Below, piece by piece: positions 4,524 through 19,344 of a stretch of 64,000 bases of DNA (the first letter of the stretch is position 1; each line of letters begins with the position of its first letter). A model generated the notes under the pieces. The model did not search any database and had not been told where the DNA came from. It saw only the letters and a program-made list of their open reading frames with translations. Position numbers and translations under genes: made by a program. The DNA comes from a bacterium UBP1_UBA4783 (GTDB lineage Bacteria > Krumholzibacteriota > Krumholzibacteriia > Krumholzibacteriales > Krumholzibacteriaceae): contig DHHB01000082.1 in assembly GCA_002403075.1 (NCBI GenBank), positions 32,213 through 96,212 on the forward strand, read 5' to 3'.

Positions 4524-5358
4524 GCTATTTCTCGCGGCGGCGATCGCGGCTGCCGCGTTCGCGGCGGGCTGCGGCAAGGACACGAAACAGGACGACGCCT
4601 CCTTCCGTATTCCCGATTCGCTCTTGTCGGAGATCGAGAGCTTCCGTCTCACGGTCGACGATTATCACGTCGTAAAAGGCGGCGTCATGGCGAACGCTCA
4701 GATCGAGCTCCGCTACCCCGCCGCCGAAGCCAGCCGGTTCGTCGCGGTCAAATCGTTCGGGTTCCTCAAGCGCGCCTACGAGGTCGTCTCGAAAGAGATC
4801 GGAAGGCCGGCCGCCGGCAAGCTCGTCGTCATCGGCACGGCCGACCTCGACGAATACAAGCTCATGACCCGGAAGGAGTGGTGGTACTACGGGGTCGTCA
4901 AGGGCGACACGATCATATTCGAGCCGCTCGACATCATGATCAAGCGAATGATCGCCGAGCCCGGCATCGCGAATCGCGTCGCGCAGGCGGCGGTGAACCG
5001 CCGCTCCGGGGGACGCTCGCCGGCGTGGCTCCGCGAAGCGGTGGCGTCGCGCATCGCGAACGAGGCGGAGATCCTCAAGATCCAGATGCCCGAGTTCGAG
5101 CACGAGGGCAGGGTCATGGACCCCTCGCCCGAGCGGATCGAAGAGGCGATCGCCGAGGGCGCGGAGCGCGGCGATTCGCGGGTCGCCTACTACGCGGCGT
5201 ACCGGATGCTGGAGAACCTCCTCGCGCGGCATTCTATGAACAACGTGCTGTCCTTCTTCGACCGTCTCCGCGAGGGTAAAACGCTGGACGAGGCCTCCGT
5301 CGGGGCGTTCGGCGTCTCGTACGCGACGCTCATCGACGCGATACGGGTCGACGGCTGA
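4516..5358 (+). CDS. Putative lipoprotein of unknown function.
   Basis: ATG 4516 overlaps the ilvC stop and follows RBS AGGAGAGG. The signal peptide MRKLFLAAAIAAAAFAAGC has a lipobox-like AAGC. It is in frame with ORF 4123..5358. Confidence 0.5.
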   Translation: MRKLFLAAAIAAAAFAAGCGKDTKQDDASFRIPDSLLSEIESFRLTVDDYHVVKGGVMANAQIELRYPAAEASRFVAVKSFGFLKRAYEVVSKEIGRPAAGKLVVIGTADLDEYKLMTRKEWWYYGVVKGDTIIFEPLDIMIKRMIAEPGIANRVAQAAVNRRSGGRSPAWLREAVASRIANEAEILKIQMPEFEHEGRVMDPSPERIEEAIAEGAERGDSRVAYYAAYRMLENLLARHSMNNVLSFFDRLREGKTLDEASVGAFGVSYATLIDAIRVDG

Positions 5359-5371
5359 GGGGCCGCGCGGC

Positions 5372-6970
5372 GTGATGGATCTCGTGGAACGGCAGAACGA
5401 CGTCGTCAGGGTGCGTTTCGCTCCGAGCCCGACGGGGCATCTCCACGTCGGGGGCGCCCGCACCGCCCTCTACAACTACCTCTACGCCCGCAAGAACAGC
5501 GGCGTCTTCGTGCTGCGCATCGAGGACACCGACGCGGCGCGCTCGACCCGCGAATCGTACGAGGGGATTCTCCGCGGCCTGCGCTGGCTCGGCCTCGAAT
5601 GGGACGAGGGGCCCGATATCGACGGTCCGTACGGCCCGTACGTCCAATCCGCGCGGAGCGTCCTCTACCACAGCGAAGCGGACCGGCTCCTGCGTGAGGG
5701 GAAGGCCTACCGCTGCTTCTGCGCCGCGGCGGAGCTCGACGCGATGCGGGCCGCGCAGGAGGCGAGGGGAGAGGCGCCGAAGTACGACGGCCGCTGCCGC
5801 TCTCTCGGCGAGACGGAGATCGAGGAAAGGCTCGCCGCGGGCGTACCGAGCGTCGTCCGCTTCGCGATGCCCCGCGACGGCGAGACGCGTTTCCGGGACG
5901 TCGTGCGCGGCGATTTTTCCTTCGGCAACGCGGAGCTCGACGACTTCGTTCTCATCAAGTCGGACGGGCGGCCGACCTACAATTACGCCGTCGTCGTCGA
6001 CGACGCGCACATGCGCATCAGCCACGTGATCCGGGGCGACGATCACATCTCCAACACGCCGCGCCAGGTGCGTCTGTACGACGCCCTCGGGTACCGGCTT
6101 CCCAAGTTCGCCCACCTGCCGATGATCCTCGGCGCCGACAAGACGCGCCTCAGCAAGCGCCACGGCGCGACCTCCGTCGACGCGTACCGGGACCTCCACT
6201 ATCTGAGCGAGGCGATGGTCAACTACCTCGCTCTGCTCGGATGGTCGTTCGACGGGAAACGCGAGCTCTTTTCGTTCAAGGCGCTCATCGAGGCCTTCTC
6301 CCTGAAGCGGGTCTCGAGCAATCCGGCCGTCTTCGACATCGCGAAAATGGAGTGGATCAACGCGGAGCATTTCAAGATGCTCCCTCCCGCGGAGAAGCTC
6401 GAGCTCGTCGCGGAGGCGCTCGAGGAAGAGGGGCTCCTGCCGCCCGCGTTCGAGGTCGATCTTTCCCGGCCCGTCGATCTCAAGCTCGTCGCGGGGAAGG
6501 AGCCGCTCAGGATCGACGCCATCGACGCCGCGAAAAAGGGCTTCGCGCGGGAGCTGCCGCGCCTCGCCCTCATCATAGAGGCGCTCGGCAACCGGCTGAA
6601 GCTCCTGAGGGACGTCCGGGAGCTCATGGGGTACTTCTACACGGACGATTTCGCCAGGGACGAAACCGCCGTGCGGAACCACCTCGCCTCGAAGGAGGCC
6701 GCATCCCGTCTCGAGGCGCTCGCCCGCGCGTACGAGGATCTGCAGTACTTCGACCGCCCCTCGGTCGAGGAGACGCTGCGCGCCCTCGCCGACCGTCTCG
6801 GGCTCCAGTCGGGGGAGCTCATCCATCCGTGCCGCGTCGCCCTCACCGGCAAGACGGTATCACCGGATATTTTCTGGGTCATCGTTCTTCTCGGCAAGGC
6901 GAAGACGGTCGAGAGGCTGCGCGCGGCGGCCGCGAACGCCCCGATTCCGCCCGCCGCGAAAGAGGGATGA
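5372..6970 (+). CDS. gltX: Glutamyl-tRNA synthetase.
   Basis: HIGH motif PSPTGHLHVGGART and KMSKS-type RLSKRHG are present. Length is 532 aa. Confidence 0.9.
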   Translation: MMDLVERQNDVVRVRFAPSPTGHLHVGGARTALYNYLYARKNSGVFVLRIEDTDAARSTRESYEGILRGLRWLGLEWDEGPDIDGPYGPYVQSARSVLYHSEADRLLREGKAYRCFCAAAELDAMRAAQEARGEAPKYDGRCRSLGETEIEERLAAGVPSVVRFAMPRDGETRFRDVVRGDFSFGNAELDDFVLIKSDGRPTYNYAVVVDDAHMRISHVIRGDDHISNTPRQVRLYDALGYRLPKFAHLPMILGADKTRLSKRHGATSVDAYRDLHYLSEAMVNYLALLGWSFDGKRELFSFKALIEAFSLKRVSSNPAVFDIAKMEWINAEHFKMLPPAEKLELVAEALEEEGLLPPAFEVDLSRPVDLKLVAGKEPLRIDAIDAAKKGFARELPRLALIIEALGNRLKLLRDVRELMGYFYTDDFARDETAVRNHLASKEAASRLEALARAYEDLQYFDRPSVEETLRALADRLGLQSGELIHPCRVALTGKTVSPDIFWVIVLLGKAKTVERLRAAAANAPIPPAAKEG

Positions 6971-8261: not shown

Positions 8262-10223
8262 ATGACGAGACGAGCGACGATTGCAGCCGCCACGCTGACC
8301 GCGGCCGTTACGGTCTTCGGGTGCGTCGCCGCCGCCGCGGGGGCGGAGGCGCCGCCGTTCGCCTTGAGGACGCTCGACGGGAGCGAGGCGGTCGAATCGA
8401 GCGCCCTCTTCGCCGAATACGGACACGTCTTTCTCGTGTTCTGGAGCGGGGGGTGTCCCCACTGCGTCGAGGCGCTCCGCGGGGCGCAGGCGTTTTACCG
8501 GCGATACGGAGGGCCTGACGTCGCGGTTGCGGGCGTCAACGCGGACGAGGGGGATGTATTGGCGTTGCGGCGGACGATCGAGACGAACGGGATCGCGTTT
8601 CGGCAGCTCCGCGATCCCGGAGGGATCGTGTCGGGGTCGTACGGCGTTCCGTTCGAGACGCTCGTGATCGTGCATGTCGCGGGCGGGACCGTCGCGGGGA
8701 CGCGCATCGATCCGGGAGGGGCCATCGACGGGGCGATGGAGGAGATGCTCCTCGGGGACGCGGCGCCGTCCCCGGACGCGCCCGAAACCACAGGAACCGG
8801 GGCCGCGGCGGCAACCGAAATCGCAGAAGAGAACGGCAAGGTTGTCTTCGGCTCGTCGATCCGCGGATGGTCGCGGATCCGGTTTCTCGATATCGATTCG
8901 CGCGGCGAGGAAGCCGCCGGGCTCTACGGCGAGCCGGTGCGGCCCGGCGGCCGGGTCGATTACCGTGTCGAAATCGAGGCCTCAAAACGCGTCGCGGCGC
9001 ATCTGCGCGCCGGCGCGCTCCTGCGGATAAGCAACGAGGGCGAGAGAGTGCTCGAGTCGGGGCCGAAGTATCTCGGCTCGCCGTTGGGGAGCGCCTTCGC
9101 GGAGATCGACGCGGCCGCGTTCACGTTCAGGCTCGGCTATTACTCGATATACATGACTCCCCTCACGCTCATGCGCTGGGATTGGGACGACAACCCGCGG
9201 GTCGGGGGCGACGCGGGATGCGGATGCGGCGCCTCGGCGGGGACGCTCCTCGTCGAGAGCCTCGACGATCTCGCGCCCGAACTCACCTTCGAGGGTGCGC
9301 TCGCGGGGTACGCGTTTTCGGGCGGGGAGATTCGGGCCTTTTACGCCATTCCGCGTCGAGCTCGGGAGACGCCCCGAGGCGCGTGGATAACGGGAGCGGA
9401 GGAGCGGGCGCGATACTCCCTCGAGATGTTCGGCGCCGAATGGCGCTGGCAGCGAGTCTCGCGCTTTTCCGGAGAAGCGTGGAAGCTCGGCGCGCGCTAC
9501 GTCGGAAGCCGCGAGCTCCGGCACAGCGTCGATTTCGTGGAGCTCGGCTACCCCGCGTACGATCCGTGGTGGGAATCGGGCATCGCGACCGTTTCGTTCG
9601 AAGCTCCCCTCGCCGGTTTCGTCCGGGCCCGGGCCGAAGGCGTCGTGTGGAACAGGGCGACCCAATACGGCCGCGGAGCTTCGGGGGACACGATCGCCTT
9701 CCGCGACGACGGCCGCGCCGGCGTCGCCGGCATCGTATTCGACGGACCGCGCGGCGCCTCGCTCACGATCGATTACCTGCTGCTCGATCCCGGTTTCTTC
9801 GCGCCCTTCGCGGCCCTTTCGTACGAGCCGAACCGGGAAGGGTATCGGGCGTCGGCGCGCGCGCCCCTCGCGCGCTCGAAGGTCGACGCCGATCTCTTCT
9901 ACAAACGCGTGCGCGAGCACACGCCGCTCTTCGGAGCCGAGCGGGCCGAAATAGAAACCGCGGGCATCTCGATCACCGGGGATCTCGGCGGCGGGTTCGG
10001 CGCGACGGCGGGCTGGATCGAGGAGAGCGACGAACGCGGCGGCGCGGTTTTTCCCTATAGCCTGTCGCGGCGGGCCGTCGAGGCGGGGCTGCAGTTCGGT
10101 TTCGCGAAGAGCGGCGTCGTCGAGCTGCGCTACAACCGCGTTCGAAGTGAAGAGTCCTCGCCGTCCGCGTCCTCGCGCGCGACGGCCGACCTGTACGCCC
10201 TCTACACGACGATCCGTTTCTGA
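8262..10223 (+). CDS. Secreted thioredoxin-like (TlpA/redoxin, CxxC) domain fused to a ~450-aa C-terminal domain ending in an aromatic residue, i.e. beta-barrel-like.
   Basis: Signal peptide, then WSGGCPHC redox motif in a TlpA-like N-domain. The C-terminal region is Gly/aromatic-rich and ends ...LYALYTTIRF. RBS GGGAGG lies 11 nt upstream. Confidence 0.6.
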   Translation: MTRRATIAAATLTAAVTVFGCVAAAAGAEAPPFALRTLDGSEAVESSALFAEYGHVFLVFWSGGCPHCVEALRGAQAFYRRYGGPDVAVAGVNADEGDVLALRRTIETNGIAFRQLRDPGGIVSGSYGVPFETLVIVHVAGGTVAGTRIDPGGAIDGAMEEMLLGDAAPSPDAPETTGTGAAAATEIAEENGKVVFGSSIRGWSRIRFLDIDSRGEEAAGLYGEPVRPGGRVDYRVEIEASKRVAAHLRAGALLRISNEGERVLESGPKYLGSPLGSAFAEIDAAAFTFRLGYYSIYMTPLTLMRWDWDDNPRVGGDAGCGCGASAGTLLVESLDDLAPELTFEGALAGYAFSGGEIRAFYAIPRRARETPRGAWITGAEERARYSLEMFGAEWRWQRVSRFSGEAWKLGARYVGSRELRHSVDFVELGYPAYDPWWESGIATVSFEAPLAGFVRARAEGVVWNRATQYGRGASGDTIAFRDDGRAGVAGIVFDGPRGASLTIDYLLLDPGFFAPFAALSYEPNREGYRASARAPLARSKVDADLFYKRVREHTPLFGAERAEIETAGISITGDLGGGFGATAGWIEESDERGGAVFPYSLSRRAVEAGLQFGFAKSGVVELRYNRVRSEESSPSASSRATADLYALYTTIRF

Positions 10224-10272
10224 GGTGCGCGCGGAGACGGGACGGCTCGGCGCTCGGGGGGCCGCGGCCTCG

Positions 10273-10857
10273 TCACCGGTAGAGGCTCTTGATCATTCCC
10301 CAGGTGAAGCACTCCGCCGCGATCACCGAATCGAGCTTGAGGTAATCGGCCCAGAAAGCTCCCGCGATCGGGGAGCCGGAAACGTACTCGAGCCGCAGCG
10401 TGCACGAGCTTCCGTATATCAGCAGGGGGCTGCTCCCCGCGGCGTTTATAACCCGTCCACACACGGTGTAATCTCCGGTTCCGGCGAAGGTGAACGCGAT
10501 GGTTTGGAGCCCCGTGTCCTCGAGGTCGCTGTACGAGAGATGCATCGTGTAGGTGACGCCGATCTCCCCCCAACATGCGAGGGTGGCGGCGTAGGTGCCG
10601 AAGCTCGACATCGCGAAGTCGTATTCGACCCACTCTCCCGGCGCGCCGAGCCCATGAAGCCTCGTGTCCACCTTGCGGATGGGATCGAAGTCGACGTCGC
10701 GACAGCGGGAAAAATTCTCGGCCTCGAGCGTGACGCTGACGGCGCCGGCATCGGCCGGTATCGCGCAGAGACCCGCGACGGCCGCGAGAGCGGCGGCGAC
10801 GGCGAGCGTCACACGGCGCGCGCGCCGCCGCGGGCGTATGCCGTTTCTCGATTCCAT
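10273..10857 (-). CDS. Secreted beta-sandwich protein, CBM6/35-like or galactose-binding-like, paralog A. Possible Tat-type signal RRRARR.
   Basis: Signal peptide, then ...TLEAENF...GEWVEYDF...FWADYLKLDSV, a carbohydrate-binding-module-like pattern. It has the same length and pattern as the adjacent paralog. Confidence 0.5.
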   Translation of the reverse strand: MESRNGIRPRRRARRVTLAVAAALAAVAGLCAIPADAGAVSVTLEAENFSRCRDVDFDPIRKVDTRLHGLGAPGEWVEYDFAMSSFGTYAATLACWGEIGVTYTMHLSYSDLEDTGLQTIAFTFAGTGDYTVCGRVINAAGSSPLLIYGSSCTLRLEYVSGSPIAGAFWADYLKLDSVIAAECFTWGMIKSLYR

Positions 10858-15431: not shown

Positions 15432-16433
15432 TCATCCGATCTCCCGCAGGACGGCCGTCGCGTCGCGGCCGCTCATCCGCGCCGCCGCGCGCACGTGCTC
15501 CCAGGGCGAGTGCTTGTGGATCTCGGCGAAGAGGTCCGCGCGCCCCGACGCGCGCGCGAGGAGATCGAGGGACGCGGCGTCGGCCGAGATCATATCGCCC
15601 GCGCAGACGAACCCGACGTCGGGCGCGACGATCGGCCCCGCGTCGGCCACGCAGTCGCAGAGCCGCGAGATCCGGCGCAGGACGTTCACCGCGTACGCCT
15701 TTTTGAACCGACCCGCCGCGAGGACCGCCGCCTCGGCGAGCAGCTCGTCGAAGAGGGCGACGCGCGGCCTGATCGCGCGTTCCGGACAGACGATGGCGCA
15801 GTTGCTGCAGCCCGGGCACCACGTGATCCCGAAGCGGGGCCGGTCCCCCTCGAGAACGATATTGCCCGTCGGGCACCGCTCGACGCACGCTCCGCATTGC
15901 GTGCATCCGCCGGCGTACACGGGCTCTCCGCCTTCGTGGATGGCCCCCTTCGTCTCCTTGGCGACGCATCCCATGCCGACGTTCTTGATAGCGCCCCCCA
16001 TGCCGCATGCGACGTGCCCCTTGACGTGCGAGAGGAGCAGCACGCCGTCGGCCTCGATCGGATCGGCGGCGAGCCGGAAGGTCATCGTCTCGCCCGAAAC
16101 GGCGAGGCTCCGGTTCGATACGACGACCGGCGCGCCGATCTCCTCTTTCGTGAAGCCGCGCTCGGCCGCGCTCGCGAGGTATCCGTCCGCGGTGCCGCGG
16201 GGGCTCGCGTAGATGACGGGCGTGTCGAACAGGAACGGATCGCAGCCGCATCCGGCGAGGCAGGAGACGACGCGGCGCGCGAAGGCGGCGTCGACGGCGT
16301 AGGGATTTCCCGGCTCGCCCATGTGGAGTTTGACCGCGATCCGGTCGCGCGGCGCGAAGACGCCCGGGAACGTCCGCGCGAGAAACGCGACGAGCGCGTC
16401 GTCGTCCGCGAGGAACATCGCTTCGTGATTCAT
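15432..16433 (-). CDS. DUF362-domain protein with an embedded 4Fe-4S ferredoxin domain.
   Basis: CTQCGACVERCP and CPGCSNCAIVCP cluster motifs. The start is placed at MNHEAMF inside ORF 15432..16529. Confidence 0.65.
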   Translation of the reverse strand: MNHEAMFLADDDALVAFLARTFPGVFAPRDRIAVKLHMGEPGNPYAVDAAFARRVVSCLAGCGCDPFLFDTPVIYASPRGTADGYLASAAERGFTKEEIGAPVVVSNRSLAVSGETMTFRLAADPIEADGVLLLSHVKGHVACGMGGAIKNVGMGCVAKETKGAIHEGGEPVYAGGCTQCGACVERCPTGNIVLEGDRPRFGITWCPGCSNCAIVCPERAIRPRVALFDELLAEAAVLAAGRFKKAYAVNVLRRISRLCDCVADAGPIVAPDVGFVCAGDMISADAASLDLLARASGRADLFAEIHKHSPWEHVRAAARMSGRDATAVLREIG

Positions 16434-16522
16434 CGTCTCTCTCTCCGCGTCCGGCCGCGCGACGCGAACGAACGCGACGCGACTATAGCAAAAAAAATAT
16501 CTTCTTCGCGAATCAAAAATGC

Positions 16523-16552
16523 TTGACACATTTTTTCATGAATGAATACCAT
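16523..16552 (+). promoter_or_regulatory. Putative sigma70 promoter (TTGACA-N18-TACCAT) in an AT-rich island upstream of the Lys-rich microprotein gene.
   Basis: TTGACA at 16523-16528, and the only AT-rich stretch in this intergenic region. The -10 is imperfect. Confidence 0.35.
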
Positions 16553-16667
16553 GCCCTCGAAGTGAATTCGCGTCCGCCTCCGAACGCATCGAGCGCCGGA
16601 CGACAGAGGAGAGGCGGACACCAAGTGGCGATGGTAGGCTTTCAACCTTCACAAAGGAGTGGATACC

Positions 16668-16763
16668 ATGCCGGTAAAGAAGAAAGCAAAAGCGAAACCG
16701 AAGAAGAAAGCCAAAGCCAAAGCGAAACCGAAAAAGAAGGCAAAGAAGAAAGCCAAGAAGTAA
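16668..16763 (+). CDS. 31-aa lysine/alanine-rich microprotein MPVKKKAKAKPKKKAKAKAKPKKKAKKKAKK, 58% Lys and very basic.
   Basis: ATG sits 7 nt after RBS AAAGGAG, with a TAA stop. The AAG/AAA-rich coding sequence is anomalous in a 70%-GC genome. It is followed 40 nt later by a strong intrinsic terminator. The overlapping 206-aa ORF 16523..17143 has no RBS and spans the terminator. Confidence 0.55.
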   Translation: MPVKKKAKAKPKKKAKAKAKPKKKAKKKAKK

Positions 16764-16805
16764 TAGCACGTCTTCGCCATTTCCGACAGTTACCATCGTC
16801 ATTAT

Positions 16806-16843
16806 GCGGGAGCGGCCTTCGGGCCGCTCCCGTTTTTTATTTT
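16806..16843 (+). terminator. Intrinsic terminator: 11-bp GC stem, UUCG tetraloop, U-tract.
   Basis: GCGGGAGCGGCC-UUCG-GGCCGCUCCCG followed by UUUUUUAUUUU. Confidence 0.75.
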
Positions 16844-16847
16844 GGCG

Positions 16848-16876
16848 TTGACACGGCCCGCTCGGGGGCCATAATT
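16848..16876 (+). promoter_or_regulatory. Sigma70-type promoter TTGACA-N17-ATAATT (or N16-CATAAT) for the pdaD-speB-DHS-like operon.
   Basis: Consensus -35 TTGACA at 16848-16853 and -10 ATAATT at 16871-16876, sitting between the terminator and pdaD. Confidence 0.55.
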
Positions 16877-16959
16877 CATCTGAATCGGTTCGGCGCGCGG
16901 CGGCTTTTCGTCGGGCGCGGCCGCGGGTTGGCGCTCACCAGCCGCAAGGGGGTACCCGG

Positions 16960-17520
16960 GTGGAAGGAAAGATACCGGACAAGATCTTCCTCACGCGAGG
17001 CGTCGGCAGGCACAAGGAAAAGCTCACGAGCTTCGAGCTCGCGCTCCGCGCGGCCGGCATCGCCCAGTTCAACCTCGTGCACGTCTCGAGCATCTTCCCG
17101 CCGCACTGCGTGCTCATTCCGCGCACGCGGGGCATATCGATGATGCGCGCGGGCGAGATCGTGTACTGCGTGCTCTCGCAGAACAGCTCGAACGAGCAGA
17201 GCCGTCTCGTCGGAGCCGGCATCGGCGTCGCGATACCGACGGATCGCAAAAAGTACGGGTACATCTCCGAGCACCACGCCTACGGCATGCGCCAGGAGGG
17301 GATGGGGGACTACACGGAGGATCTCGCCGCGACGATGCTCGCCTCGACGCTCGGCATCGAGATCGACCTCAGCCGCGCGTGGAACGAACGCAAGCAGGAA
17401 TGGAAGATCGCCGGACAGATCGTCCGCACGACGAATATCACGCAGACGGCGTTCGGCAAGGAAGGGATGTGGACATCCGTCGTCGCGGCGGCGGTGTTCT
17501 GCAGCTACAAGAGCCGGTAA
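16960..17520 (+). CDS. pdaD: Pyruvoyl-dependent arginine decarboxylase.
   Basis: The PvlArgDC family pattern is present. GTG start. Length is 186 aa. Confidence 0.75.
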   Translation: MEGKIPDKIFLTRGVGRHKEKLTSFELALRAAGIAQFNLVHVSSIFPPHCVLIPRTRGISMMRAGEIVYCVLSQNSSNEQSRLVGAGIGVAIPTDRKKYGYISEHHAYGMRQEGMGDYTEDLAATMLASTLGIEIDLSRAWNERKQEWKIAGQIVRTTNITQTAFGKEGMWTSVVAAAVFCSYKSR

Positions 17521-18362
17521 TGGAGCGAAGCTACGATTTTCTCGGCACCGAAGTCGCCGGTGCGGACAGGGATCGCGTCTATGTGATCCCTGTTCCCGTT
17601 GAATGGAGCGTCTCCTACGGGAAGGGAGCGGGAAGCGCGCCGGCGGCGCTGCTCGCCGCCTCCATGCAGATCGAGGTGTACAACGCCGGACTCGGCGTCG
17701 ATCTCGAGGGCTCGGGCATCGTGACGCTCCAGCCGGGGATCCGTTCGAAGGACGATCTCCTCTCGTTCCTCCGCGAGAACCGCGGCCTCTTCCGCGACGC
17801 GCTTCCCTGTTTTCTCGGCGGCGAGCACTCGATCACCCCGTGGATACTCGAGGGGCTCGAGCTTCGCGACGTCGGGATCGTATGGCTCGACGCCCACGCC
17901 GACCTGCGGGAGCGCTATCTCGGCGAGCGCGAGAGCCACGCGTGCGCCGCGCGCAACTCGCTCCCCTACGGCCCGCTCGTCCAGATCGGCGTGCGGAGCT
18001 ACTCGCGTGAGGAGCGGGACTTCCTGCGGGGCGCGGGGGGCACGCGGGTGTTTCCGTTCTGGAACGAGGGCGCGTGGGAGGCGATCCGGCGCCTCCCCGA
18101 GAACGTGTACCTCTCGATCGATTTCGACGCGGTGGATCCCGCGATCCTGCGCGCCGTCGGCACGCCGGAGCCGGGCGGGCTCGGCTGGGAGGAGCTCATG
18201 GATCTCCTCACCTTCGTCTTCGAGAAGAAACGGGTCGTCGCGATGGACGCCGTCGAGCTCGCGCCGGCGGAGCACGACGTGACCTCGAGCTTCATCGCGG
18301 CGAAGATCGTGTACGAGGCGATATCGCGATATCTGAGAAGGGAGCTTCCCCGTGAAACGTAA
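17520..18362 (+). CDS. speB: Agmatinase (ureohydrolase family).
   Basis: Arginase-fold metal ligands GGEHSIT, DAHADL and SIDFDAVDP are present. The ATG overlaps the pdaD stop (TAATG). Confidence 0.8.
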   Translation: MERSYDFLGTEVAGADRDRVYVIPVPVEWSVSYGKGAGSAPAALLAASMQIEVYNAGLGVDLEGSGIVTLQPGIRSKDDLLSFLRENRGLFRDALPCFLGGEHSITPWILEGLELRDVGIVWLDAHADLRERYLGERESHACAARNSLPYGPLVQIGVRSYSREERDFLRGAGGTRVFPFWNEGAWEAIRRLPENVYLSIDFDAVDPAILRAVGTPEPGGLGWEELMDLLTFVFEKKRVVAMDAVELAPAEHDVTSSFIAAKIVYEAISRYLRRELPRET

Positions 18363-19344
18363 ATACCTCACCCATCCGACGAGGCCTATCCTCCCGAAGG
18401 CGGGGATGACGTGCGACGAGCTGCTGCTCGGCCTCGAAGGGTGCAGCTTTCAGGCGCGCCAGCTCGCGCTCGCCGCGAAGATCTGGTCGGAGGCCCTCGA
18501 CGACGATATCGTCGTCATGTTCGGCCTCGCCGGCGCGATGGTTCCCGCCGGCATGCGCGCGACGATCGTGACGCTCATGGAGCACCGCCTCATCGACGTC
18601 GTCGTCTCGACGGGCGCCAACCTCTACCACGATTTCTACGAGACGGCGGGCAACTTCCACTACCTCGGGAGCCCCTACGCGGACGACACGAAGCTCCGCG
18701 CGGACAAGATCGACCGGATATACGACACGTACGCCGACGAGGACGGTTTCGTCCGGCTCGACCGCCACATCGGCCGCTGGGCGACGAAGACGCTCGAGGA
18801 GCGGCCCTACACGACGCGCGAGTTCCTCCATCTGCTGGGGAAGGAGGCGAACCGCGTGTCGAAGGGGGAGCAGGGCATCCTCAGCACGGCCTACCGCCTC
18901 TCGATCCCGGTCTACTGTCCGGCGATCGGCGACTCCTCGATCGGCATCGGGCTCGCGGGGCGCACGCCGAAGGTGATCTTCGACATGATCGGCGACGTCG
19001 AGGAGACCGCCGACATCGCGGCCTCGAAGCCGACGATGGTGATCTACGTCGGCGGCGGGACGCCGAAGAACTTCATCCAGCAGACCGAGGTGACGAACAT
19101 GGTCCTCGGGCGCGAGGCGGAGGGGCACCGCTACGCGATCCAGTTCGTGGTCGACGCGCCGCACTGGGGAGGCCTGAGCGGCTGCACCTTCGAGGAGGCG
19201 ATCAGCTGGGGCAAGATCGCCGTCGACGCGAAACGCGTCACGGTCGTCTCGGACGCGGCGATCGCGCTGCCGATCGTCGCGGCGTCCGTGCTCACGCGCC
19301 GCCGGAGGGCGAAGAAGAGACGCGCGCCGAAGCTGTTTTCGTGA
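18352..19344 (+). CDS. Deoxyhypusine synthase-like protein; in bacteria usually the homospermidine-synthase-type enzyme.
   Basis: DHS family pattern ...FGLAGAMVPAGMR...GANLYHD...VYCPAIGDSSIGIG...VIYVGGGTPKNF.... GTG start overlapping the speB 3' end. Confidence 0.75.
   Translation: MKRKYLTHPTRPILPKAGMTCDELLLGLEGCSFQARQLALAAKIWSEALDDDIVVMFGLAGAMVPAGMRATIVTLMEHRLIDVVVSTGANLYHDFYETAGNFHYLGSPYADDTKLRADKIDRIYDTYADEDGFVRLDRHIGRWATKTLEERPYTTREFLHLLGKEANRVSKGEQGILSTAYRLSIPVYCPAIGDSSIGIGLAGRTPKVIFDMIGDVEETADIAASKPTMVIYVGGGTPKNFIQQTEVTNMVLGREAEGHRYAIQFVVDAPHWGGLSGCTFEEAISWGKIAVDAKRVTVVSDAAIALPIVAASVLTRRRRAKKRRAPKLFS

What the first reader, a model, noticed from the sequence alone, without database searches (positions are those of the whole stretch)
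16523..19344. Standalone 31-aa poly-Lys/Ala microprotein gene immediately upstream of an arginine-to-homospermidine/deoxyhypusine-synthase-like operon
The microprotein has its own promoter, RBS and terminator, sits in a 70%-GC genome and is about 58% lysine. It is tandem (same strand) and immediately upstream of the pdaD-speB-DHS-like operon, whose last enzyme belongs to the family that aminobutylates a lysine epsilon-amine using spermidine or putrescine.

Three readings are possible:
- a polycationic nucleoid or ribosome-associated microprotein;
- a lysine-rich protein substrate or carrier for the DHS-like enzyme, which would be an undescribed bacterial hypusine-like modification;
- a polyamine-sensing leader peptide, where Lys-codon runs stall ribosomes and the terminator 40 nt downstream acts as an attenuator.

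A separate consensus promoter (16848-16876) after the terminator complicates a pure attenuation model.
Basis: partly seen in the sequence, partly recalled or inferred. Interest (0 to 1): 0.65.

Follow-up and report, generated by a model that had tools for sequence, protein, structure and literature searches.

The report
Conserved poly-lysine microprotein gene, Krumholzibacteriota
A real, separately transcribed gene for a tiny, extremely lysine-rich protein, conserved across one uncultured bacterial phylum, sits beside a known homospermidine operon as a neighbour rather than as its leader or substrate.

Summary
Window 16668-16763 (+) encodes MPVKKKAKAKPKKKAKAKAKPKKKAKKKAKK (19 Lys of 31). It has a near-consensus promoter, a strong Shine-Dalgarno (SD) site and a 12-bp intrinsic terminator. 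A second promoter follows, then pdaD, an agmatinase-like gene and a DHS-like gene.

The organism is a Krumholzibacteriota MAG. Every related locus with enough sequence carries a same-strand Lys/Ala(Arg/Thr/Val)-rich ORF at this position, 31 to at least 147 aa long. Promoter, terminator and a structured 5' leader are conserved; all 9 pairs of one leader stem show compensatory changes.

The Lys-to-Arg replacement in distant lineages uses CGN codons. This shows selection on the protein.

The downstream operon matches the published diagmatine route to homospermidine (arginine decarboxylase, SpeY, ureohydrolase).

Three points argue against a leader-peptide or enzyme-substrate role:
- the operon carries its own conserved promoter;
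- three loci keep the Lys-rich gene but lack the operon;
- 47 SpeY loci from other phyla have no such ORF.

Most likely this is an abundant, disordered polycation that binds DNA, RNA or polyphosphate, similar in kind to Chlamydia Hc2 or Pseudomonas AlgP. It matches no protein family library. Interest is moderate.

The parts
16523..16552 (+). Promoter P1 of the Lys-rich gene (TTGACA, 18 nt, TACCAT) with an A/T-rich stretch upstream
   Evidence: Found by the promoter scan. The TTGACA and an (A)TAACAT/TACCAT -10 element, with an A/T-rich upstream region, are conserved in all orthologous loci printed.
16572..16619 (+). Leader helix 1: GTCCGCCTC (16572-16580) pairs with GAGGCGGAC (16611-16619)
   Evidence: Present in the single-sequence fold. 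In 41 distinct leaders, all 9 pairs show changes on both sides and 94% of cells are paired. Slid controls give 36-58% for the whole two-helix structure, and 0 of 500 shuffles reach the observed values.
16637..16661 (+). Invariant leader motif GGCTTTCAACYTTYWCAAAGGRGTG, containing the SD site (AAAGGAG 16653-16659) inside a small hairpin (CCTT pairs with AAGG; TTCA pairs with TGGA in the window, TGRG in the consensus)
   Evidence: Occurs once in the window, 0 expected by chance. Invariant or nearly so in 17 loci that were found through the DHS gene, not through this motif. A metagenome scan gave 31 further hits, each followed by a Lys-rich ORF. The hairpin is predicted but never varies, so covariation cannot test it.
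16668..16763 (+). Lys/Ala-rich microprotein gene: 31 aa, 19 Lys, 8 Ala, 3 Pro, about +19 net charge
   Evidence: Orthologues of 31 to at least 147 aa occupy the same position. The internal repeat has a 24-30 nt period. No Pfam or NCBIfam match.
16764..16775 (+). Conserved post-stop element TAGCACGTCTTC; function unknown
   Evidence: Conserved as TAGCASGTCTTC in most Krumholzibacteriia loci, including those without the operon.
16806..16843 (+). Intrinsic terminator of the Lys-rich gene (GCGGGAGCGGCC, loop TTCG, GGCCGCTCCCGT, then a T-run)
   Evidence: 54 of 55 loci have a hairpin plus T-run 6-60 nt after the stop codon, with 39 different stem sequences.
16848..16875 (+). Promoter P2 of the polyamine operon (TTGACA, 16 nt, CATAAT)
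   Evidence: The TTGACA and ATAAT/ATACT elements are invariant in alignment A2. P2 was found within 120 nt after the terminator in 38 loci. L092 and L106, which lack the operon, show no TTGACA-type promoter after the terminator in the printed sequence, and the scan found none in L089, L092 or L106.
16960..17520 (+). pdaD: pyruvoyl-dependent arginine decarboxylase
   Evidence: PF01862, E 2.5e-56. TIGR00286 scores 125 bits, above its cut-off of 107.
17520..18362 (+). Arginase-family ureohydrolase: agmatinase-like, probably the diagmatine (G44G) ureohydrolase
   Evidence: PF00491, E 4e-46. It scores below the agmatinase equivalog cut-off, 158 against 174 bits. SpeY-associated homologues are specific for G44G according to PMC13625781.
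18352..19344 (+). DHS homologue, probably SpeY (diagmatine synthase)
   Evidence: PF01916, E 1.5e-84. Below every NCBIfam equivalog cut-off. The closest solved structures are deoxyhypusine synthases. The SWGK motif is readable in the translation; that it holds the catalytic Lys is from my own knowledge of human DHS. The cluster type matches the one tested in PMC13625781.

Best explanation
The microORF is a genuine, independently transcribed and probably highly expressed gene for a small, intrinsically disordered polycationic protein. In kind it is a free-standing histone-H1-tail or protamine-like Lys/Ala repeat. It is specific to the phylum Krumholzibacteriota.

Shown here:
- The gene is a conserved monocistronic unit: strong promoter, roughly 105-nt structured leader, strong SD site, ORF and strong terminator.
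- Selection keeps the protein basic while repeat number changes freely (31 to at least 147 aa).
- The neighbouring pdaD / ureohydrolase / SpeY genes form a separately promoted cassette, which can be absent while the Lys-rich gene stays.

Inferred:
- The protein binds polyanions (chromosomal DNA, rRNA or mRNA, or polyphosphate) non-specifically through charge. It would act as a macromolecular counter-ion or compaction factor.
- Its synthesis is controlled after transcription through the conserved leader. The 5'-proximal stem may stabilise the mRNA, and the invariant hairpin that holds the SD site may gate translation.
- The position next to the homospermidine operon reflects inherited synteny in this phylum. 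At most it reflects a loose functional kinship, since both modules supply cellular polycations. It does not reflect cis-regulation or an enzyme-substrate relation.
For: - Position: a Lys-rich ORF lies directly 5' of pdaD in every Krumholzibacteriota genome locus that has upstream DNA, at SpeY identities from 98% down to 55%.
- Independent retrieval: 31 of 31 metagenome hits to the leader motif are followed by such an ORF.
- Protein-level selection: distant lineages replace Lys with Arg encoded by CGN codons (13-19 per gene), and all length differences are in frame.
- Start context: the ATG sits 8 nt after AAAGGAG, and the N-terminus is conserved as MP(V/K) or MA(A/M/V/I).
- Expression signals: P1 is conserved; 54 of 55 loci have a terminator, with 39 distinct stems.
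- Leader: helix 1 has 9 of 9 pairs with compensatory changes, and 0 of 500 shuffles reach the observed values.
- A-runs are kept to 7 nt or fewer. In the window's lineage they are shorter than in about 98% of synonymous Lys-codon shuffles. This fits productive translation rather than stalling.
- Independence from the operon: L089, L092 and L106 read DUF362, Lys-rich gene, ComM, with no cassette and no TTGACA-type promoter found after the terminator.
- The operon is explained on its own terms by PMC13625781.
- Known analogues: Chlamydia Hc2 binds DNA and varies in length through lysine-rich pentamer copy number (PMC2848022). Pseudomonas AlgP is histone-H1-like and associates with polyphosphate granules (PMC9239181). 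Both come from the titles and abstracts listed.
Against: - There is no expression or binding data of any kind.
- The polyanion target is inferred from composition only.
- Homology cannot be established. Pfam, NCBIfam, the 5.8-billion word-indexed search and the 1.8-billion-representative phmmer search all returned nothing, as expected for a short, biased sequence.
- ORF openness itself is weak evidence, because all frames of this T-poor sequence are open.
- Adjacency to the operon holds in 20 of 23 informative metagenome loci and in all genome loci. A functional link therefore cannot be dismissed.
- The 50% AAA usage (16% in neighbouring genes) and the conserved post-stop element remain unexplained.
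Confidence: 0.6

Rival explanations
1. Polycation homeostasis module. The Lys-rich protein and homospermidine are functionally coupled. Translation of the Lys-rich mRNA would be tuned by polyamine level through the invariant SD-occluding leader hairpin, in the manner of the E. coli 'polyamine modulon' mRNAs. The cell would thereby balance protein and small-molecule polycations.
For: - The two modules are adjacent throughout the phylum.
- The leader motif around the SD site is invariant across lineages whose neighbouring proteins are only 50-70% identical.
- Both products are polycations.
- That polyamines alter SD-proximal RNA structure in E. coli is from my own knowledge of the polyamine modulon.
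Against: - The whole eight-gene neighbourhood is syntenic, so adjacency is not specific to this pair.
- The gene persists without the cassette in three loci.
- No ligand-binding architecture is evident, and there is no Rfam match.
- The hairpin shows no covariation.
Confidence: 0.1
2. The Lys-rich peptide is an acceptor substrate of the DHS-like enzyme. Lys side chains would be guanidinobutylated from agmatine and then trimmed by the ureohydrolase to aminobutyl-lysine. This would be a bacterial hypusine-like modification.
For: - The gene lies next to a DHS-family gene in nearly all loci.
- In halophilic archaea, aIF5A modification has been linked to agmatine (title and abstract of PMC5178350); that the route runs through DHS and an agmatinase-like enzyme is from my own knowledge of that paper. 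This gives the chemistry a precedent on a protein lysine.
Against: - The same enzyme trio occurs in 47 loci from at least 8 other phylum-level groups with no Lys-rich ORF nearby.
- All tested bacterial SpeY homologues, including one from a cluster with the same type of arginine decarboxylase, make G44G and then homospermidine (PMC13625781).
- The peptide has no folded eIF5A-like domain. DHS is known to need one (my own knowledge).
- The window's enzyme ends in a basic tail, RRRRAKKRRAPKLFS, which is not what one expects on a partner for a polycation.
- The gene is retained where the cassette is missing.
Confidence: 0.04
3. Leader peptide or transcription attenuator. Ribosome stalling on the Lys codons would control read-through of the terminator into the pdaD operon.
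For: A short ORF, then a terminator, then the operon, all on one strand. Lys-codon runs can slow ribosomes (my own knowledge).
Against: - A TTGACA-type promoter follows the terminator: found within 120 nt in 38 of the 54 loci with a terminator and visible further downstream in several distant-lineage loci.
- There is no alternative antiterminator pairing. Only the terminator is stable in the centroid fold.
- The stop codon lies 6-60 nt before the stem, and the ORF is 31 to at least 147 aa long.
- A-runs are avoided.
- The gene with its terminator persists without the operon in L089, L092 and L106.
Confidence: 0.03
4. The locus does not encode the Lys-rich protein. The functional product would be a purine-rich RNA, or a hydrophobic Phe/Leu/Ala-rich peptide from the minus strand.
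For: - All six frames are open over the repeat because of its composition.
- The window has a 43-aa antisense ORF, MAKTCYYFLAFFF....
- AAR triplets resemble the ARN motifs bound by Hfq (my own knowledge).
Against: - Antisense ORFs have no conserved start codon or N-terminus, and an SD-like motif was flagged for only 4 of about 48 of them, never in a conserved position.
- Promoter, SD site and terminator are all oriented for the plus strand.
- Lys-to-Arg replacement through CGN codons keeps the charge but not the nucleotide sequence.
- The ATG is held at a fixed distance from the SD site in all loci.
Confidence: 0.05

Closest known systems
Chlamydia histone H1-like protein Hc2 (hctB)
   Same: It is a Lys/Ala/Arg-rich low-complexity protein, and its length varies between strains through the copy number of lysine-rich repeats (PMC2848022). 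It is a polycation that binds DNA. The present family shows the same composition and the same length plasticity, 31 to at least 147 aa.
   Different: - No detectable sequence relationship: no Pfam hit even at E <= 10.
- The present proteins are much smaller (31 aa in the window, against 165-237 aa).
- They come from a different phylum.
- DNA binding has not been shown for them.
- They carry a conserved structured 5' leader of their own.
Pseudomonas aeruginosa AlgP (AlgR3), a histone H1-like repeat protein
   Same: It is a histone-H1-like protein (per the title; its Lys/Pro/Ala-rich tandem repeats are from my own knowledge) that associates with a cellular polyanion, namely polyphosphate granules (PMC9239181). 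This illustrates that the target of such proteins need not be DNA.
   Different: AlgP is a much larger protein with an additional N-terminal region (my own knowledge). There is no homology evidence, and no localisation data exist for the present family.
Eukaryotic histone H1 C-terminal tail and protamines
   Same: They have the same composition (Lys/Ala/Pro or Arg-rich), are disordered, and compact nucleic acids through charge (my own knowledge).
   Different: The present protein is bacterial and free-standing, with no globular domain. Any similarity is compositional and convergent, not a sign of common descent.
SpeY / diagmatine pathway gene clusters (arginine decarboxylase, DHS homologue SpeY, G44G ureohydrolase)
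   Same: The three downstream genes have the same three families in one cluster. A cluster with the same pyruvoyl-type arginine decarboxylase, from Caldilinea aerophila, was shown to make G44G and homospermidine (PMC13625781).
   Different: - The gene order here is pdaD, ureohydrolase, speY.
- The Krumholzibacteriota enzymes have not been tested.
- The DHS homologue scores below all NCBIfam equivalog cut-offs.
- A Lys-rich gene upstream is not a feature of any of the other 47 clusters examined.
SD-occluding RNA elements (fourU-type RNA thermometers; 5' stem-loop mRNA stabilisers such as the ompA leader)
   Same: A U-rich strand (CYUU) pairs with the SD site (AAGG). A covarying 5'-proximal stem-loop precedes it. 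The comparison with these known elements is from my own knowledge.
   Different: There is no Rfam match. The hairpin is short, and neither temperature nor ligand response has been tested. The motif is specific to this one gene.

Membership tests
Bacterial histone H1-like Lys/Ala-repeat proteins (Hc2, AlgP type) | Lys/Ala(/Pro/Arg)-rich low-complexity repeat making up most of the protein | tested here: met
   19 Lys, 8 Ala and 3 Pro in 31 aa. Tandem repeat with a 24-30 nt period. Orthologues have the same composition.
Bacterial histone H1-like Lys/Ala-repeat proteins (Hc2, AlgP type) | Length polymorphism through repeat copy number | tested here: met
   Lengths run from 31 to at least 147 aa across loci, always in frame. 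Even the closest relatives differ: 31, 33, 36 and 31 aa.
Bacterial histone H1-like Lys/Ala-repeat proteins (Hc2, AlgP type) | Significant profile match to a curated family of this kind (for example the Pfam Hc2 or Hc1 models) | tested here: not met
   No Pfam family at E <= 10 for five members of 31-147 aa, and none in NCBIfam. The test has little power on biased sequence.
Bacterial histone H1-like Lys/Ala-repeat proteins (Hc2, AlgP type) | Binds and compacts DNA, or associates with another polyanion | not testable with these tools
   Needs EMSA, localisation or pull-down experiments.
Transcription-attenuation leader peptides | The leader ORF and the regulated genes share one promoter, and the terminator is the only entry to the operon | tested here: not met
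   A conserved TTGACA-N16-18-ATAAT promoter lies between the terminator and pdaD.
Transcription-attenuation leader peptides | Mutually exclusive antiterminator and terminator structures coupled to ribosome position | tested here: not met
   Only the terminator hairpin is stable in the centroid fold. No G+C-rich segment complementary to its 5' arm lies upstream.
Transcription-attenuation leader peptides | The leader always accompanies the regulated operon | tested here: not met
   L089, L092 and L106 have the Lys-rich gene and its terminator but no pdaD, speB or speY.
Deoxyhypusine synthase protein substrates (eIF5A / aIF5A type) | A folded N-terminal domain that presents one conserved Lys in an exposed loop | tested here: not met
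   The protein is 31 aa of Lys/Ala/Pro repeat with no room for a domain. No family match.
Deoxyhypusine synthase protein substrates (eIF5A / aIF5A type) | Co-occurs with the DHS-family enzyme wherever the enzyme occurs | tested here: not met
   47 DHS-homologue loci from other phyla (about 474 kb) have no comparable ORF.
Deoxyhypusine synthase protein substrates (eIF5A / aIF5A type) | Carries aminobutyl- or guanidinobutyl-lysine | not testable with these tools
   Needs mass spectrometry or an in vitro assay.
SpeY (diagmatine) homospermidine pathway cluster (downstream operon) | An arginine decarboxylase, a DHS homologue and an arginase-family ureohydrolase in one cluster | tested here: met
   PF01862, PF00491 and PF01916 hits on overlapping or abutting genes. 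The same trio is found in 80 related loci.
SpeY (diagmatine) homospermidine pathway cluster (downstream operon) | The DHS homologue passes a curated SpeY equivalog score | tested here: not met
   [quoted passage not shown] The best model, NF002006, scores 380 against 434.
SpeY (diagmatine) homospermidine pathway cluster (downstream operon) | Makes G44G from two agmatine molecules, and the ureohydrolase converts it to homospermidine | not testable with these tools
   Shown for homologues from other phyla in PMC13625781. Not shown for this lineage.

The most novel reading that the evidence does not exclude
The Lys-rich protein is post-translationally aminobutylated or guanidinobutylated on lysine by the neighbouring DHS homologue, using agmatine, with trimming by the ureohydrolase. 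This would be the first hypusine-like protein modification in bacteria. A milder version is that the two modules form a regulated polycation-homeostasis unit, with the invariant leader sensing polyamines.
Probability: 0.05. Interest if true: 0.85.

Novelty: new member of a known kind. Interest (0 to 1): 0.38.

Why it matters
- It adds a phylum-wide, probably abundant microprotein to an uncultured phylum (Krumholzibacteriota) for which no work on chromatin-like or RNA-associated proteins turned up in the one literature search made.
- It exposes a blind spot. The family matches no model in the family libraries searched and was not returned by the large protein searches, and it breaks many MAG assemblies, because it is short and low in complexity.
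- At 31 aa and about +19 charge, it may be close to the minimal natural protein polycation. It comes with a natural length series (31 to at least 147 aa) suited to studying charge-driven compaction or condensation.
- Its covariation-supported leader is a candidate new cis-regulatory RNA.
- The more exciting idea of a bacterial hypusine-like modification is made unlikely here, but it can be tested cheaply with a synthetic peptide.

Tried and rejected
- Sequence homology searches returned nothing. Composition bias and short length make these tools blind here, so I switched to synteny and a DNA-motif search.
- Rfam found only four tRNAs in the window and only sub-threshold terminator-like hits at the locus. 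No known riboswitch or leader is present.
- Antisense hydrophobic peptide: rejected. It has no conserved start codon or N-terminus, and an SD-like motif only sporadically.
- Attenuator model: rejected. The reasons are a conserved second promoter, no antiterminator, and persistence of the gene without the operon.
- RNAalifold on the MAFFT alignment of the terminator region recovered only the base of the stem, because the stems are out of register. I replaced it with a per-locus hairpin search.
- The synonymous-shuffle test for A-run avoidance is significant only in lineages with about 50% AAA, and those lineages are related to each other. I treat it as modest evidence.
- The literature searches made for Lys-rich small proteins linked to polyamines, and for Krumholzibacteriota, returned nothing relevant.

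Full report
**Observation**

- A promoter-like site: TTGACA at 16523, an 18-nt spacer, TACCAT ending at 16552.
- A leader of about 108 nt that ends in AAAGGAG (16653-16659).
- An ATG at 16668 opening a 31-codon ORF, MPVKKKAKAKPKKKAKAKAKPKKKAKKKAKK, with stop TAA at 16761-16763.
- A 12-bp, G+C-rich hairpin at 16806-16833 followed by a T-run.
- Only 5 nt after the T-run, a second promoter matching 11 of 12 consensus positions (16848-16875).
- Then pdaD (16960-17520, PF01862), an arginase-family gene (17520-18362, PF00491) and a deoxyhypusine-synthase-family gene (18352-19344, PF01916).

Lys is 19 of 31 residues (61%). GC falls to 0.44 over the ORF, against about 0.70 in the flanks. No other stretch in the 64-kb window reaches 40% Lys in a 25-residue window in any frame. 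Independent Logan and ENA contigs carry the same 31-aa gene call in the same context.

**Organism and conservation**

The DHS-like protein retrieves 80 genome loci. The closest (55-98% identity) are MAGs labelled Krumholzibacteriota / UBP1, a few of them labelled Latescibacterota. More distant ones (50-55%) come from Acidobacteriota, Deltaproteobacteria, Nitrospinota, WOR-3, Gemmatimonadota and others.

In every Krumholzibacteriota-type locus that has DNA upstream of pdaD, a same-strand Lys-rich ORF ends 144-345 nt before pdaD. Lengths range from 31 aa in the window's lineage to at least 147 aa. Many contigs end, or carry N-gaps, inside the repeat.

None of the 47 loci from other phyla (about 474 kb) has anything comparable.

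The entire neighbourhood is syntenic within the phylum: Na+/H+ antiporter (-), DUF362/4Fe-4S (-), Lys-rich gene (+), pdaD, ureohydrolase, DHS-like, ComM (+), acyl-CoA dehydrogenase (-). Adjacency of the Lys-rich gene to the operon is therefore no more conserved than the other adjacencies.

**Is it a protein-coding gene?**

An open frame is weak evidence here, because this T-poor sequence is open in all six frames. Four other lines of evidence are stronger.
- The ATG is held at a fixed distance from an invariant SD site, and the N-terminus is conserved as MP(V/K)... or MA(A/M/V/I)KAK....
- All length differences are in frame, even among near-identical genomes: 31, 33, 36 and 31 aa.
- In the distant lineages, a third to a half of the basic residues are Arg encoded by CGN (13-19 codons per gene). 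Charge is kept while the nucleotides change.
- Antisense ORFs have no conserved start codon or N-terminus, and an SD-like motif appears only sporadically.

Lys codons are about 50% AAA in the window's gene, against 16% (12 of 73) in seven neighbouring genes. Even so, the longest A-run is 5 nt. That is shorter than in about 98% of synonymous shuffles for the window's lineage and several others. This fits selection against slippery poly(A) tracts.

**Transcription unit and leader**

P1, with an A/T-rich stretch upstream, is conserved. A hairpin plus T-run follows the stop codon in 54 of 55 loci, with 39 different stem sequences.

The leader has two parts.
- Helix 1 is a 9-bp stem (window 16572-16580 with 16611-16619). 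Its sequence drifts but its pairing is kept. In 41 distinct leaders, all 9 pairs show double changes and 94% of helix-1 cells pair. For the whole two-helix structure 96.6% of cells pair, against 36-58% in slid controls, and 0 of 500 shuffles reach the observed values.
- An invariant 25-nt motif, GGCTTTCAACYTTYWCAAAGGRGTG (window 16637-16661), places the SD site in a short hairpin.

The motif is unique in the window. In a metagenome scan it hit 31 contigs, each time directly upstream of a Lys-rich ORF. The invariance among those metagenome hits follows from how they were found. Among the 17 loci found through the DHS gene, it does not.

Rfam has no match. I infer post-transcriptional control, through mRNA stabilisation by the 5' stem, gated initiation, or both. 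The effector is unknown.

**The operon**

The trio of pyruvoyl-dependent arginine decarboxylase, DHS homologue and arginase-family ureohydrolase corresponds to the agmatine-dependent 'diagmatine' route to homospermidine. SpeY couples two agmatine molecules to N1,N9-bis(guanidino)homospermidine (G44G). A SpeY-associated ureohydrolase, inactive on agmatine, converts G44G to homospermidine.

This was shown for SpeY homologues from diverse phyla, including a cluster with the same type of decarboxylase in Caldilinea aerophila (PMC13625781).

The window's DHS homologue keeps the SWGK lysine motif, and its nearest solved structures are deoxyhypusine synthases. It scores below every NCBIfam equivalog cut-off. 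Its assignment as SpeY therefore rests on the cluster context, not on a passing score.

**Relation between the two modules**

Attenuation:
- A TTGACA-type promoter follows the terminator: within 120 nt in 38 of the 54 loci with a terminator, and visible further downstream in several distant-lineage loci.
- No antiterminator alternative exists.
- The ORF is long and variable in length.

Most telling, three metagenome loci (L089, L092, L106) read DUF362, Lys-rich gene, terminator, ComM. They have no pdaD, ureohydrolase or speY, and no TTGACA-type promoter was found after the terminator. L092 and L106 share the 3'-UTR sequence of close relatives that do have the cassette, while L089 belongs to another lineage. 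The cassette was therefore lost or moved at least twice while the Lys-rich gene stayed. This fits the published view of speY plus its hydrolase as a mobile module.

Substrate reading:
- The enzyme trio is widespread without any Lys-rich ORF, and it has a demonstrated small-molecule function.
- The peptide lacks the folded domain that DHS needs.
- A precedent in halophilic archaea, where aIF5A modification has been linked to agmatine (PMC5178350), keeps the chemistry conceivable. I put this reading at about 4-5%.

**What it most likely is**

It is a free-standing, disordered polycation made in quantity and acting through charge on DNA, RNA or polyphosphate. This is the same kind of protein as Chlamydia Hc2, whose length varies through lysine-rich repeat number and which binds DNA (PMC2848022), and Pseudomonas AlgP, which is histone-H1-like and sits on polyphosphate granules (PMC9239181).

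Membership in those families cannot be shown. No profile matches, and the similarity is compositional. I therefore classify it as a new member of a known kind, not a new kind.

Which polyanion it binds, whether it regulates its own mRNA, and whether its level is coordinated with homospermidine all remain open.

**Unexplained**
- The 12-nt TAGCASGTCTTC element right after the stop codon is conserved even in loci without the operon.
- The enrichment in AAA codons.
- The effector of the invariant SD hairpin.

**Verdict**

Interest is moderate. The solid new items are a phylum-wide, unannotated microprotein family and its covarying leader RNA. The hypusine-like idea that drove the original score is unlikely.

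Noticed in passing
window 16764-16775; same position in L002-L022, L035, L092, L106: The 12-nt element TAGCASGTCTTC directly after the stop codon of the Lys-rich gene is more conserved than the protein's C-terminus. It is kept even where the polyamine cassette is absent. No pairing partner was found, and no conserved antisense ORF explains it.
   Followed up: partly
L089 about 5147-5662; L092 about 9956-10476; L106 (reverse-complemented) about 1614-2065: In three Krumholzibacteriota metagenome contigs, the promoter-plus-pdaD-ureohydrolase-speY cassette is missing between the Lys-rich gene and ComM. This suggests at least two independent losses or relocations of the homospermidine module.
   Followed up: partly
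L012, L016, L021-L025, L028, L030, L090, L093, L095, L096, L105, L109: Many MAG and metagenome contigs end, or carry N-gaps, inside the Lys-rich repeat gene. The exact-sequence look-up of seven orthologues in the 15-billion-protein collection found none. The family is systematically under-assembled and under-annotated.
   Followed up: partly
window about 16883-16959 (5' UTR of pdaD): This G+C-rich leader of about 77 nt may contain a hairpin (GCGGC...GCCGC here, GCGGTTC...GAACCGC in relatives). It has no Rfam match and is poorly conserved in sequence. It could be a structured leader of the polyamine operon.
   Followed up: no
window 19297-19341 (C-terminus of the DHS-like protein): The SpeY-like protein ends in a strongly basic tail, RRRRAKKRRAPKLFS. 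In at least one close relative (L003) the tblastn match stops at query residue 315, before this tail.
   Followed up: no
window 16434-16529 (minus strand): The mechanically listed DUF362/4Fe-4S ORF starts at a GTG (16529) that overlaps the -35 of P1. The gene call on independent contigs is 333 aa, and similarity starts further in. The real start is probably the ATG near 16433 (MNHEAMF...), which would leave a divergent A/T-rich intergenic region of about 90 nt.
   Followed up: partly
window 16649-16802 (minus strand): The reverse-strand frames of the Lys-rich ORF read as Phe/Leu/Ala-rich hydrophobic peptides (for example MAKTCYYFLAFFFAFFFGFALALAFFF...). This by-product of composition could be mistaken for a small membrane-protein or toxin gene.
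   Followed up: yes
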